From positions 1 to 13,959 of the forward strand of contig NW_021825938.1 of NCBI RefSeq assembly GCF_006345805.1: a DNA stretch of 13,959 bases. Direction: 5' to 3'. The notes under the pieces are model-generated. The model had not been told where the DNA came from. It saw only the letters and a list, made by a program, of their open reading frames with translations, and did not search any database. Shown here piece by piece: positions 1,331-11,960 of the stretch. Origin of the DNA: Octopus sinensis. Its lineage: Eukaryota. Numbering within the stretch: the stretch's first letter is position 1; every line of letters begins with the position of its first letter. Made by a program: the position numbers and the translations under genes.

Positions 1331-1527
1331 AATCATGTATGCATACTTATATGATACATTGATGTCTTAAAAACCCATATTTAAGAATACGATTTTAAAA
1401 TGATTTTAAGAATAATATGAAATTATTTACTAATTCACTACTCTATACAAAAACCAATCCAGACTGGTAGAATAAGCCGTCAAGCAAAACTTAGTCAAAA
1501 TCAAGAATAATTATATATATAACTATA

Positions 1528-1971
1528 CTAGCAGTATCGCCCGGCGTTGCTTGGGTTTGTAAGGGAAATAACTATATAAGCATTTTTAGATAGTTACTTC
1601 CCTTATAGATGCCAATTTGGGCTTCTTTCTTAGCCATTTCTTTTGGTGTCTTCAAGCCATGAAGTCGTTTCTAAAAGAACGCTGGTCTCCTTGACAACGC
1701 TTTACGACGTTGATTTCCTTACAACTCCCTTCCCACAGCTTCACGAGGGAGGGAAGAAGGGAGAGAACAAACAGGTGCAGGTGTGACCATGGACGCCAAC
1801 TCCGCCGCCATCGACACACGAAAAATTATGCATTAAAATGGAATAAAAAAATGATGTTAAATTATTTTTAAAATCGTAGACTCATCGTAGACGCGCGCTA
1901 GTACTCAGACGGGCTCGATATGAAACTCACGACTAAAGATACCCGAATTTGGTTAACCTGCACCGCAAAAT
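1528..1971 (-). mobile_element. Non-autonomous Helitron-like element, copy 1 (5'-truncated)
   Basis: Reverse complement of 2038-2481. The minus-strand 3' end has a GC hairpin at 1540-1555 and CTAG at 1528-1531, followed by T. Confidence 0.75.
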
Positions 1972-2871: not shown

Positions 2872-3723
2872 TATATATATATACGAATGCATATGTAAAT
2901 GTGTGTGTGTTGTGTGCATGCGTTTGTATGTGCTTGGATAGCGTAATATTTGTCTAGAAACTATTATAATTCCAGCTTACATCTGAAATGTAACGTTGTA
3001 TCAATTTTATTTAAATATCACCATATAAAGTCAGTTATTAACTATAATTATATTATAATATATTCTCTTAGTAAATGCCATTATATTCATGCCAAAAATT
3101 CTCTTCATTTTAATATAGTGTTTTTCCTTTTAAATGTGTTTCCGCGATTCTTAATTGTAACTTAGATTTTTTTTTCCCGCGTATATACCGAGTAAATTTG
3201 ATATTAATTTTTTTCGTCCTTGAGTTTGTTTTCCTTGTTAATAAAATGCGTCATTATAATTGCTTTGTGAATAACCACTAGAAGCAATGTTTAACGATGT
3301 ATTTACTCTGCTGATAAAAATCATATAATGAGTGTACTAATTTGTCTTAACTTAGCGCTATACATTACACCATACACTACCAATAATTGTTTGTATTGTA
3401 CCAGTGTATTACTTGTTTCAGTTAATAGATTGCGACCATGCTGGAGCCCCGCTTTGAAATTTTAGTCGAATGAATCGACCCCAGTGCTTATTTTTTAAGC
3501 TTGGTATTTATTCCATCGTTGTCTTTTGCCGAACCGCCAAGTTACGGGGAAGCTAACACATCAACACCGGTTGTCAAGCGGTGGGGAGGGGGCAAACACA
3601 GACAGAAAGACACACACACAAGCACACATACACACACGCTCGCGCTCAAGCACAAACAGAACATACACACATAGATACACATACATATATATATATATCT
3701 ACGACGGGCTTCTTTCAGTTTCT

Positions 3724-4641: not shown

Positions 4642-5288
4642 CTGGGGGAACTCATACGCCACAGAAACTAGGGAACAGGGCCCATGAGCCTGACTAGGAT
4701 TGAAAAGGGCGCATAAATAAATAAATCAAAAGGCGACGAGTTGGCAGAAACGTTCGCACGCCAGGCAAAATGCTTAGCGGTATTTCGTCTGCCGTTACGT
4801 TTGAGTTCAAATTCCGCCGAGGTTGACTTTGCCTTTCATGCTTTCGGGGTCGATAAATTAAGTACCAGTTACGTACTGGGGTCGATGTAATCGACTTGAT
4901 CCCTTTGTCTGTTCTTGTTTGTCCCTTCTATGTTTAGCCCCTTGTGGGCAATAAAGAAATAAGAAACTGAAAGAAGCCCGTCGTAGATATGCATATGTGC
5001 ATGTGTATCTATGTGTGTATGTGTATGTTTGTGCTTGAGCGCGCGTGAGTGTGTATGTGTGCTTGTGTGTGTGTCTTTCTGTCTGTGTTTGTCCCCCACC
5101 ACCGCTTGACAACCGGTGTTGGTGTGTTACCCTCCCCGTAACTTGGCGGTTCGGCAAAAGACAACGATAGAATAAGTACCAGGCTTAAAAAATAAGCACT
5201 GGGTCGATTCATTCGACAAAAATCTCAAAGCAGGATTCGAGCATGGTCGCAATCTAATAACTGAAGCAAGTAATACACTGGTACAATA
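4642..5288 (+). repeat. Inverted duplicate of 3394-4036, comprising the 3' end of SINE B, a complete SINE A (4731-4962) and the 3' body of SINE C
   Basis: Colinear reverse complement over ~645 bp, including both nesting junctions and the flank TAATACACTGGTACAATA. Confidence 0.92.
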
Positions 5289-7814: not shown

Positions 7815-8061
7815 ATCTATACGTATATGTGTATAAATGTATATGTGTGAGTGTGTGAGTGTATGTGTGCGTGCGATGGTGTGTATACATATGTATATGT
7901 ACACATATACATGCGTACATATACACGTATATATATATGTACATACATATACATACACGCACACACACACACATACACACACATATATACATACACAGGC
8001 ACACACACATACATATACATAATATTATATATGATATGGGTGGTTGTGTGTGTATACATAT

Positions 8062-8106
<45 letters not shown>

Positions 8107-8131
8107 ATGTATGTATGTAATCTATCTACCC

Positions 8132-8177
<46 letters not shown>
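7815..8177. repeat. (TA)/(CA)/(TG) low-complexity microsatellite region
   Basis: Directly visible. Confidence 0.93.
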
Positions 8178-8447
8178 ATAATATTAATTCGAGACAAAAC
8201 CACTAATAAAACTGATTATAAGATTGGAAATCCACCTGACGATTGTCATTTGAAGACATGAAACGATTGTAGTGGCGGTTTATTTACTTTATATTAAAAT
8301 TTTTATGTATTGATTAAGTCTTTCCTTGTTTGTTTTGCAAAGTAGTGGTTTTGTCTCGAATTAATATTATATAATATTTTACTATAAAATTGGATTTAAT
8401 CCTAAATCTGATTTTTTTCCTGTAAATTTGGATTTATTCCCTAATAT
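8178..8447 (+). mobile_element. Short non-autonomous Penelope-like (pLTR-type) or retrozyme-like element inserted in (TA)n
   Basis: Perfect 28-bp inverted repeat (8178-8205 and 8343-8370), an internal hammerhead motif, and a ~75-bp AT-rich tail beyond the repeat. (TA)n-rich arrays lie on both sides. Confidence 0.6.
8228..8281 (+). ncRNA. Minimal type I hammerhead ribozyme motif
   Basis: Stem I CCAC (8232-8235)/GTGG (8272-8275), extendable by AAAT/GTTT across a bulge; CTGACGA at 8236-8242; stem II TGTC/GACA closed by a U.U pair with a 7-nt loop; GAAA at 8260-8263; near-palindromic stem III ACGATTGT; predicted cleavage after GUA at 8271. Confidence 0.75.
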
Positions 8448-8449
8448 TT

Positions 8450-8523
<74 letters not shown>

Positions 8524-8570
8524 TATATATATATATACAAATGTTTGCATGTATATGTGTATGCATGGAC
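8448..8570. repeat. (TTA)n/(TA)n microsatellite
   Basis: Directly visible. Confidence 0.93.
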
Positions 8571-8574
8571 ATAT

Positions 8575-8750
8575 GTTTCTGTGTCTCTGTTTGTCCCCAG
8601 AACATCGCTTGACAACCGATGTTGATGTGTTTACGTCCCCGTAACTTAGCGGTTCGGCAAAAGAGTCCGATAGAATAAGTACTAGGCTTCCAAAGAAAAA
8701 GTCCTGGGTCCATTTGTTCGATTAAAGGCGGTGCTCCAGCATGGCCTCTA
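8575..8750 (+). mobile_element. 3' body of SINE family C
   Basis: CGCTTGACAACCGATGTTG...CCCCGTAACTTAGCGGTTCGGCAAAAGA...GATAGAATAAGTAC...GCTCCAGCATGG matches 5075-5250. Confidence 0.85.
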
Positions 8751-9268
8751 TTAGTAGTAACTAGCAAATGACCTTCAAAAGGCACACCTTAATTTGTCCA
8801 ATCGGAGCATTTATTTACTGGGAGTGCTTAGTGGGTGAAAAAAAGTAGCTAGCGCTATCACCAACATTTGTATGAAACAAACATACTATATCTGCAAAGT
8901 GTCTATGCAAAGAAAATATGCCTATATTTCATTACGGTAAGAATCTAGGACATCTAGATGCTTCTGTGACTATTATTCTCTTATTCCATCTATGGAGAAA
9001 GGACGTCTTCTCAGAAAACATCATCATAACTGACAGTCGGCCACTAAGTGTTGATTACAGAACAAAGAAAGATGAAGAAAAATGAGTGACTGCTTATATA
9101 TACTATCGACAAAAAGTTATACGTCAATGTGGTTGCGAAATATCTACAGAAATTTACTAACATGTATATGAAGCTAGACACTTAGTAATACGTTTTATCG
9201 ACTTGTGTGTTTATACATACATACATTTATATATATATATATATACACAGGGTGCGGCGATTAAATTG

Positions 9269-10865: not shown

Positions 10866-11960
10866 AACTAATAAGAAGAACTAGGACAGAAGAACTAGGA
10901 AAAAATCAATATGAATGGAGGACTCCACCCAAGGGCAGGAGTAGCAAGATTATACTTACCTAGAATGGTAGGTAGAAGAGGGTTAATGTCAGTAGAGGAC
11001 TGCGTGAAGTTAGGTAGAGTAGATATAGACTCTTATGTAGGTAATAGTGAAGAAAGTTTATTAAAATCTGCTAGAGTCACAACAAGACATATGGAAACCA
11101 AAAACCCAAACGAAGTTAAAAACCAGAAAAAAGAAAATAAATTATCTGACTGGCAAGAGACGGCGTTGCATGGTAGATTCCCAAAGATAGTTGCAATAAA
11201 TAGCCGCAGTGAGACATGGTTATGATTGCAGAAAGAAAGCTGAAAAAGGAGACAAATTTTATTAGCAGCTGCACAAGATCAAGCATTAAGAACTAATTGG
11301 ATAAAAGTTAAAAGCGACAAAAACCAAGAAAATTTCCAGTGTAGCTTATGCAAATTAAAAGAGGAAAGCGTTACTCATACAGCCAGTGAAAGTAGTATGC
11401 TGGCACAAAAAGAACACAAGAAAAGACATGACAACCTAGGGAGAGTAATCCAAAGGGTGTTACGTAGAAAGCTAGGATTTTAACAAACCAATAAATGGTT
11501 TGAACATGAACCTAGTAATGTCCTAGAAAGTAAAAAATACAAAATGATGTGGGACTGACAGATTAATAGAAGCTAGAAGGCCTGATTTAGTAGATGTAGA
11601 TAAAGACAAGATAAATTGCCATATAATTGATTTTACAGTCCCAAATGATTAAAAATCAAAATGAGAGTTATGGAAAAACAGCAAAGTACCAGGACCTAGC
11701 GATTGGGCTACAGAGACTATGGAAAATAGTGCGAGTAAAATATATCCCAGTTGTTATAGGTGCATTGAGAACTATCACTAAAGATCTGAACAGATGGATA
11801 GAGAAAACAGGCTTAAAACCCAGCTTAGTACACCTGCAGAAAACAGTGTTATTAGGGACAGCTAGAATACTTAGGAGGGTTCTTGGCATCTAAGGTTACT
11901 TGTGGCCCGCTGTTAGGATTTTTCTTTTCCAACAGTCTAATCTGTTGTGTGTATATGAAA
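10865..11960 (+). mobile_element. 5'-truncated, inactive R4/Dong-clade non-LTR retrotransposon (post-RT region, zinc knuckle, restriction-like endonuclease, short 3' UTR)
   Basis: Translation across frameshifts gives GLHPRAGVARLYLPRMVGRRGL, LHGRF, AAQDQALRT, CSLC-x8-H-x4-(S replacing C) from 11340, KRHDN, RRPDLV (11575-11592), IIDFTVP, EKTAKYQDL, IPVVIGAL and LQKTVLLGTARILRRVL with the stop at 11893. (AAT)n arrays lie on both sides. Confidence 0.9.

What the first reader, a model, noticed from the sequence alone, without database searches (positions are those of the whole stretch)
8178..8447. Hammerhead ribozyme cassette inside a perfect 28-bp inverted repeat, inserted in (TA)n
Seen: a ~270-bp non-coding island in TA microsatellite holds a complete hammerhead core (CCAC-CUGACGA-stem II-GAAA-CGAUUG-UA|GUGG). 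It is enclosed by ATAATATTAATTCGAGACAAAACCACTA (8178-8205) and its exact reverse complement (8343-8370), and a ~75-bp tail containing two AAATT(T)GGATTTA units follows. Established: Penelope-like elements carry minimal type I hammerheads with a short palindromic stem III that is thought to work as a dimer, often have an inverted partial pLTR at the 5' end plus a 3' tail, and some insert in AT microsatellites; retrozymes are non-coding hammerhead retroelements. Inference: this is a miniature non-autonomous, ribozyme-bearing retroelement family. If it lies in an intron it could cleave host pre-mRNA. It is the best candidate for an undescribed system in this window.
Basis: partly seen in the sequence, partly recalled or inferred. 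Interest (0 to 1): 0.75.

Follow-up and report, generated by a model that had tools for sequence, protein, structure and literature searches.

The report
Spliced leader copy of Penelope retrotransposon
This 270-base island is an intron-less copy of the front end of a Penelope-type jumping gene, one of well over a thousand such pieces in this genome, and it likely records the element's spliced, capped message being copied back into DNA from a start point inside the message, which would explain why the long copies of these elements keep their intron.

Summary
The sequence is as described, but it is not an independent ribozyme element. It is the 5' leader (pseudo-LTR plus tail) of an autonomous 5.5-6.1 kb Hydra-type Penelope-like element (PLE) found elsewhere in this genome, with a 1.0-1.8 kb GT-AG intron removed exactly. 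The 28-bp repeat is a variable inverted 5' arm (absent, or 22-180 bp, in 68 copies), not a terminus. Exact-motif counts give 2,281 spliced and 1,425 unspliced junctions. Spliced copies mostly stop at one initiator-like site, often with an extra G. Their junction follows a 4-nt shift of the splice donor in one subfamily, and they do not form one clade (AU p 1.4e-8). Copies run through the hammerhead cut site. Best reading: dead-end cDNAs of the capped, spliced sense mRNA, primed at the tail and again at the pLTR end. This argues against the published antisense-template explanation of PLE intron retention. Cleavage, capping and splicing in RNA were not tested. I found no paper reporting such copies (7 searches), but this scan noted the same reading before, in this genome and others. 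A second PLE family here showed no spliced copies (0 of 33).

The parts
8053..8177 (.). left (TA)n target microsatellite
8178..8205 (-). inverted 5' arm: antisense copy of 8343-8370, inferred second cDNA primed at the pLTR end
   Evidence: arm starts at the pLTR end in 50 of 54 arm-bearing copies
8207..8222 (+). last 16 nt of the 27-nt exon 1 of the parent element (5'-truncated here); in the parent it is followed by GTATGT
8222..8223 (+). splice junction: a 1,098-nt GT-AG intron of parent copy L091 is missing exactly here
8223..8377 (+). exon 2 / pseudo-LTR
8232..8275 (+). minimal type I hammerhead motif, predicted cut after A8271, self-complementary stem III 8263-8270, U-U at 10.1/11.1
8378..8447 (+). 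70-nt tail; in the parent it runs on to the ORF, whose ATG is 63 nt further
8386..8415 (+). predicted 13-bp hairpin inside the tail, between the two inferred priming sites
8448..8537 (.). (TTA)n run then right (TA)n target microsatellite

Best explanation
The island is an intron-less copy of the leader (exon 1 remnant, pseudo-LTR with hammerhead motif, tail) of an autonomous Hydra-type Penelope-like element, likely made when the element's own enzyme reverse-transcribed its spliced, capped sense mRNA starting inside it. SHOWN: the parent unit, the exact GT-AG intron loss, the shared 5' stop point, the variable inverted arm, the (TA)n targets, and copies that run through the hammerhead cut site. 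INFERRED steps: (1) a tandem master is transcribed by Pol II from an initiator (TCA+1CTT) in the upstream copy, and the 27-nt first exon is spliced to the pLTR; (2) the protein nicks both strands of (TA)n; (3) one nick primes at the tail end and copies only what lies upstream, at most about 253 nt to the cap, sometimes adding a base opposite the cap; (4) the other nick primes 70 nt further 5', at the pLTR end of the same RNA, and makes the inverted arm (28 nt here); (5) the two cDNA ends join. The product lacks the ORF and the upstream promoter region, so it is a predicted dead end. Long copies come from priming at a downstream pLTR-tail of a read-through RNA, whose intron is almost always unspliced, so intron retention needs no antisense template. 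The hammerhead is a passenger in this copy, predicted to cut only as a dimer or with protein help.
For: Parent with pLTR+tail, ORF, 3' UTR, pLTR in tandem, units 5,509-6,095 bp (6 same-strand unspliced pairs of 5.5-6.1 kb). The ORF has the Hydra motifs and its predicted fold best matches telomerase RTs (E 6e-10). Introns of 1.0-1.8 kb (one 2.4 kb) in 21 donor-acceptor pairs. Junction motifs genome-wide: spliced 849 + 1,432, unspliced 1,425, controls 0. In subfamily C the junction is AAA/AT with no shared bases. In subfamily D, 10 of 14 donors read TT/GTAAGT, 4 nt upstream of the old site, and the spliced D copies join exactly there in three exon-1 variants. 138 of 153 spliced copies match no further than +1, 44 of them exactly to +1; 3 reach about 65-75 nt upstream. 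All 22 unspliced copies that reach the donor run on past +1 (3 of them judged by eye). Base at -1 in the 100 listed of 121 exon-1 hits, tallied by hand: unspliced C 36 of 36; spliced G 35, A 17, C 12 (Fisher p 3.5e-17). In 4 copies the G sits between (TA)n and +1 with no arm to template it. 0 of 68 tailed spliced copies continue into the ORF, against 5 of 37 unspliced. Of 64 head-to-head pairs, 42 are both spliced, 14 both unspliced, 1 mixed, 7 unclear; 59 have the tail on one arm only. Spliced copies as one clade are rejected (40 of 146 spliced vs 40 of 66 unspliced rows). 285 of 307 pLTR contexts run through the cut site. Internal initiation at the two tail boundaries from uncleaved RNA, with both strands extended, is shown in vitro for another PLE (PMC11167929).
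Against: No RNA evidence was obtained for the start site, the cap or splicing. A second Hydra-type family in this genome (2,121 exact hits) showed no spliced-type junction in 33 contexts, so the by-product is not universal. Hammerhead covariation does not exceed shuffles (225 of 500). In many fold-back copies the -1 G can also be read as junction microhomology, 17 spliced copies have A there, and the pattern could not report T. Why the downstream intron escapes splicing is not explained by the data. My loci were chosen from pattern hits, so sample proportions are not genome proportions, and motif counts include both arms of one insertion. Pfam gave no hit on the two ORF copies, and no intact full-length ORF was verified.
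Confidence: 0.85

Rival explanations
1. Self-propagating non-autonomous family: some spliced copies are themselves transcribed from host promoters and re-copied in trans, like a SINE or retrozyme.
For: Thousands of short copies. They keep both inferred priming sites and the hairpin, so they could be templates. Non-autonomous PLE derivatives are reported (PMC8557442 section 10; bioRxiv 2026.07.22.740005).
Against: Not one clade. Each exon-1 variant of the short copies has an intron-bearing parent. The 5' stop point is the parent's inferred start site, not shared host sequence (146 of 153 had no element-body match upstream). No short head-to-tail arrays: 1 spliced same-strand pair, 893 bp apart. 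Ends do not coincide with the cut site.
Confidence: 0.1
2. Same spliced template, but the inverted arm arises by cDNA fold-back or template switching rather than by a second priming event on the RNA.
For: Many long arms meet the main copy in a near-perfect palindrome with a short loop. Arms are closer to each other than random copies are (0.026 vs 0.049).
Against: Short arms such as this one copy a segment 135 nt away from the junction, and 50 of 54 arms start at the pLTR end whatever their length. One mixed spliced/unspliced pair exists (L179).
Confidence: 0.25
3. DNA-level deletion of the intron region in one or a few masters, or antisense-template transposition, with no spliced RNA involved.
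For: AG/GT...AG/AT offers 2 nt of microhomology in subfamilies A and B. An antisense template was proposed for PLEs (PMC3846280 Discussion).
Against: Subfamilies C and D have no such microhomology, and the junction tracks the donor shift. The loss recurs in four subfamilies. An antisense RNA would not be spliced at sense GT-AG sites or stop at a sense initiator.
Confidence: 0.03
4. MITE with 28-bp terminal inverted repeats.
For: Perfect 28-bp repeat, small size, TA-rich target.
Against: The arm is absent in 14 of 68 copies and 22-180 bp in the rest, and the tail lies outside the repeat. The parent encodes an RT.
Confidence: 0.01

Closest known systems
Hydra-clade EN+ Penelope-like elements (Craig et al. 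2021, PMC8557442; sections 10, 11, 15 and supplement tables read)
   Same: RT then C-terminal GIY-YIG-like domain; DKT, CxCx5C, CxxC and CxH motifs; (TA)n targets; hammerhead with U at 10.1 and 11.1 as in many listed Hydra motifs; pLTR, tail, inverted 5' copy.
   Different: Unit 5.5-6.1 kb rather than generally under 3 kb; about 100-aa Asn-rich linker; 1-1.8 kb leader intron; 70-nt tail rather than 30-40 bp; hammerhead differs from the listed Hydra-1_Obim. No spliced copies are mentioned in what I read.
Drosophila virilis Penelope (Schostak et al. 2008, PMC2377424, passages; Cervera & de la Pena 2014, PMC4209133, results and discussion)
   Same: Internal start site, short first exon, intron ending just 5' of hammerhead helix I.
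   Different: 75-bp intron. The passages describe genomic copies as retaining it. Here most counted junctions are spliced.
Anolis Poseidon PAc in vitro (Frangieh et al. 2024, PMC11167929, main text read)
   Same: Two internal RT start sites bounding a stem-loop tail, both strands extended, uncleaved RNA is the substrate.
   Different: Different clade; there the tail lies inside the ORF; spliced templates were not examined in the text I read.
Animal non-LTR retrozymes (PMC7229834, passages; bioRxiv 2026.07.22.740005, first two of five parts)
   Same: Small, non-coding, AT-rich, type I hammerhead, pLTR-related.
   Different: Retrozymes are tandem repeats cut to circular monomers. This is dispersed, single or head-to-head, bounded by a start site and a tail.
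Adineta vaga Penelope elements (Arkhipova et al. 2013, PMC3846280, passages and Discussion)
   Same: Head-to-head palindromic pLTR junctions, TCACT initiator-like motif, Asn-rich ORF inserts.
   Different: That paper favours an antisense template. The spliced head-to-head pairs here point to a sense template.

Membership tests
EN+ Penelope-like element | Single ORF with telomerase-like RT | tested here: met
   YRDD motif; model's best PDB matches are telomerase RTs, E 6e-10; Pfam and a PDB sequence profile gave nothing
EN+ Penelope-like element | C-terminal GIY-YIG endonuclease | tested here: met
   By motif only: VVY...YIG, conserved R, E and N columns with 12 homologues; no separate fold search on this domain
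EN+ Penelope-like element | pLTR from tandem copies, optional tail, inverted 5'-truncated copy | tested here: met
Hydra clade | DKT motif, CxCx5C linker, CxxC and CxH, no CCHH, no N-terminal EN | tested here: met
   absence of CCHH judged by eye
Hydra clade | RWK motif | tested here: inconclusive
   Reads RIKWKA (K for R); some homologues share KWK
Hydra clade | (TA)n insertion and hammerhead in the pLTR | tested here: met
   65 of 68 3' flanks and 61 of 68 5' flanks are TA runs; core intact in 250 of 266 contexts with a locatable core, 9 more had none
Hydra clade | Generally under 3 kb (typical, not diagnostic) | tested here: not met
   5.5-6.1 kb units
Hydra clade | Placement inside Hydra on an RT tree with reference sequences | not tested
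Minimal type I PLE hammerhead | Conserved core, short self-complementary stem III | tested here: met
   Stem III self-complementary in 261 of 266; dimer co-fold pairs it between molecules
Minimal type I PLE hammerhead | Covariation of stems above chance | tested here: inconclusive
   94.9% paired, one pair with a two-sided change, not above shuffles
Minimal type I PLE hammerhead | Self-cleavage | not testable with these tools
   Needs in vitro transcription
Non-LTR retrozyme | Short head-to-tail tandem units each with a hammerhead | tested here: not met
   1 same-strand spliced pair among 153 spliced copies, 893 bp apart
Non-LTR retrozyme | Circular monomer RNA | not testable with these tools
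   Only assembled contigs were served
MITE | Fixed terminal inverted repeats at both ends | tested here: not met

The most novel reading that the evidence does not exclude
Most insertions of this PLE family are cDNAs of the spliced, capped sense mRNA leader, made by two priming events 70 nt apart on one RNA. The genome thus holds thousands of fossil 5' RACE products that map the element's start site and splice sites, exclude an antisense template for this family, and explain PLE intron retention as a side effect of internal initiation: splicing near the cap yields only sterile leader copies, so only the unspliced downstream copy of the intron is inherited.
Probability: 0.7. Interest if true: 0.65.

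Novelty: new variant of a known kind. Interest (0 to 1): 0.5.

Why it matters
PLEs are described as retaining introns through retrotransposition, and the reason is called unknown (PMC8557442 section 15); an antisense template has been proposed (PMC3846280). This family gives a countable genomic test: spliced copies exist in the thousands, stop at the inferred cap, and form the same head-to-head structures. It links the in vitro internal-initiation result (PMC11167929) to the intron puzzle and predicts which RNA a PLE-based insertion assay would copy. It also warns that small hammerhead-bearing repeats annotated as retrozymes or MITEs may be such by-products. The element class itself is known, and this scan has recorded the same reading on other DNA.

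Tried and rejected
Rfam: no hammerhead hit. Pfam and PDB sequence profile on the ORF: nothing useful. Sequencing runs: no RNA holder listed on record; contigs of four runs guessed to be RNA cover the window stretch in short pieces only and cannot show a start, strand, splicing into the ORF or cleavage, so expression stays open. Covariation test not above shuffles. The first alignment had three rows on the wrong strand and was redone. Generality test on a second Hydra-type family: 22 of 33 contexts had the parent's upstream sequence and 11 were truncated or inverted, with no shared alternative exon seen by eye. The U-U at 10.1/11.1 first looked like decay; rejected because 39 of 266 family contexts and many published Hydra motifs have it. 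A bias from short flanks hiding mixed pairs was checked: only L179 has element body abutting a spliced copy as an inverted arm; the other distant hits looked like host repeats. Look-up of earlier findings by sequence found nothing. Literature searches for spliced genomic PLE copies listed none; subscription papers such as Arkhipova 2003 and 2006 were not read, and the preprint's supplements were not seen, so an earlier mention cannot be excluded.

Full report
Observation. The 28-bp arms are exact reverse complements and do not extend. Rfam does not detect the motif and the monomer does not fold into it by energy alone, as expected for minimal PLE hammerheads, which showed no cleavage as single motifs in PMC4209133. 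The window is a whole small contig of a 2.7-Gb genome. The one named protein hit is from an octopus, and the SINEs in the window look like octopus SINEs as I recall them, so the host is likely an octopus.

A family, and the repeat is not a terminus. The 270 bases match many loci at 93-98% (40 of 2,010 candidates scored). Among 68 tailed copies of the window's type, 14 have no inverted arm and 54 have arms of 22-180 bp; 50 of the 54 start at the pLTR end (about 8377), and TA runs flank 65 (3') and 61 (5') of 68. This removes the MITE reading.

The parent. Some copies had a different upstream sequence. Following it gave tandem units of 5.5-6.1 kb in which pLTR and tail run straight into a long ORF. 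The two ORF copies translated are broken at one end each (762 and 672 aa). They carry YRDD, DKT, CxCx5C, a YIG motif, CxxC and CxH, an Asn-rich linker, and KWK for RWK, which fits the Hydra clade as defined in PMC8557442 section 11. The predicted structure (mean pLDDT 78) best matches telomerase RTs. Pfam found nothing. The hammerhead differs from that of the listed Hydra-1_Obim, so this is another family. No tree with reference PLEs was made.

The window copy is spliced. Its first 16 bases (8207-8222) match a site 1,098 nt upstream in parent L091, followed there by GTATGT; the parent has TTTTTAG just before 8223. Introns measure 1.0-1.8 kb, once 2.4 kb, in 21 donor-acceptor pairs. Exact 19-mers gave 83 spliced and 87 unspliced junctions for the nearest subfamily. 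Wider patterns gave 849 and 1,432 spliced and 1,425 unspliced, beside 3,916 hits for the core. These count motifs, both arms included, with patterns of unequal strictness. DNA deletion is unlikely: subfamily C joins AAA to AT with no shared bases, and in subfamily D the donor has moved 4 nt (TT/GTAAGT in 10 of 14 donors) and the short D copies join at the new site in three exon-1 variants.

Spliced copies stop at one place. Of 233 distinct hammerhead copies in the first 220 loci, 153 were spliced, 66 unspliced and 14 unclear. 138 of the 153 match the parent no further than the A of TCACTT, 44 exactly to it, 14 go further and 1 was not scored. Three reach about 65-75 nt upstream, although I had deliberately fetched all 12 listed candidates for such extensions. 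All 22 unspliced copies that reach the donor run on past that A. In the 100 listed of 121 exon-1 hits, my hand tally of the base before it is C in 36 of 36 unspliced, and G 35, A 17, C 12 in 64 spliced (the pattern excluded T). An extra 5' G is a recalled mark of cap copying in LINE-1 products. Here it is ambiguous in fold-back junctions but untemplated in at least 4 arm-less copies. None of 68 tailed spliced copies continues into the ORF; 5 of 37 unspliced do.

By-product, not lineage. An AU test rejects spliced copies as one clade (40 of 146 against 40 of 66 rows, 157-nt alignment, p 1.4e-8). Head-to-head pairs are nearly always of one kind: 42 spliced, 14 unspliced, 1 mixed, 7 unclear of 64, with the tail on exactly one arm in 59. 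A check for hidden mixed pairs found only L179. 285 of 307 pLTR contexts run through the cut site; 13 begin downstream of it and 9 were flagged near it, mostly inversion junctions or mis-parses; 276 of 277 continue past it. So the template was uncut RNA.

Mechanism. PMC11167929 showed in vitro that a PLE protein nicks and extends both strands of AT-rich DNA, starts at two sites bounding a stem-loop tail, and uses uncleaved RNA. The same layout is here: pLTR end, 13-bp hairpin (118 identical contexts, variants mostly keep it), tail end. I infer that priming at the first tail of the capped, spliced mRNA copies only the leader, and that a second priming at the pLTR end gives the inverted arm, 28 nt in this copy. 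Priming at a downstream tail gives long copies with the intron. Why that intron is rarely spliced is open; cap-dependent first-intron splicing or decay of RNAs spliced after the stop codon are untested guesses from general knowledge. PMC3846280 proposed an antisense template for intron retention and head-to-head palindromes; spliced head-to-head pairs argue against it for this family.

The ribozyme. The core is intact in 250 of 266 contexts and stem III is self-complementary in 261. Loop 2, position 7 and the 10.1/11.1 pair (A-U 180, U-A 43, U-U 39) vary while core and stems do not, which suggests selection in the masters, but covariation is not above shuffles. Activity is untested.

Against and open. 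No RNA evidence. A second Hydra-type family with 2,121 exact hits showed no spliced junction in 33 contexts. Loci were chosen from pattern hits, so sample fractions are not genome fractions.

Novelty. The element kind, its hammerhead, tail, inversion and leader intron are known. Seven literature searches listed no report of spliced genomic PLE copies, within a library that lacks most subscription papers. This scan had noted the same reading on another piece of this genome and in other genomes; I had reached mine before that look-up (note), and those notes are not counted as support. Verdict: new variant of a known kind, interest 0.5.

Noticed in passing
L179:4526-8740: A second Hydra-type PLE family (DKT, RWK, own hammerhead, inverted arm, pLTR, tail) sits in the same TA tract as a family-1 insertion; 2,121 exact hits of a 32-mer; no spliced copies among 33 contexts.
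   Followed up: partly
L179:1051-4302: The one mixed insertion: a 3-kb unspliced inverted arm joined to a short spliced, tailed copy.
   Followed up: partly
L275, minus strand, about 9138-9200: A family-1 splice donor is interrupted by about four TTAGGG telomeric repeats; possibly telomerase or PLE RT addition at a break.
   Followed up: no
L262, L263, L264, L265, L268: Further Hydra-type families with open frames of 856-1,124 aa and, in L262 and L264, different hammerheads with long stem II.
   Followed up: no
window 8448-8463 and 68 copies: The number of TTA units after the tail ranges from 0 to 7 (mode 3), exceeding the three of parent L091; slippage at initiation or later expansion.
   Followed up: partly
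L091 minus strand, about 3700-3350 and 3100-2755: The parent's long 3' region holds an internal duplication of about 350 bp, one copy on each side of the splice donor.
   Followed up: no
window 1518-1924, 2084-2491, 2595-2871: Two or three copies of a roughly 400-bp repeat in inverted arrangement, with TA-rich junctions; family not identified.
   Followed up: no
window 10899-11225: Decayed fragment resembling a non-LTR retrotransposon ORF end (resemblance recalled).
   Followed up: no
window 8580-8740 and 3420-3590, 5093-5250: Copies of an abundant SINE-like repeat beside the element.
   Followed up: no
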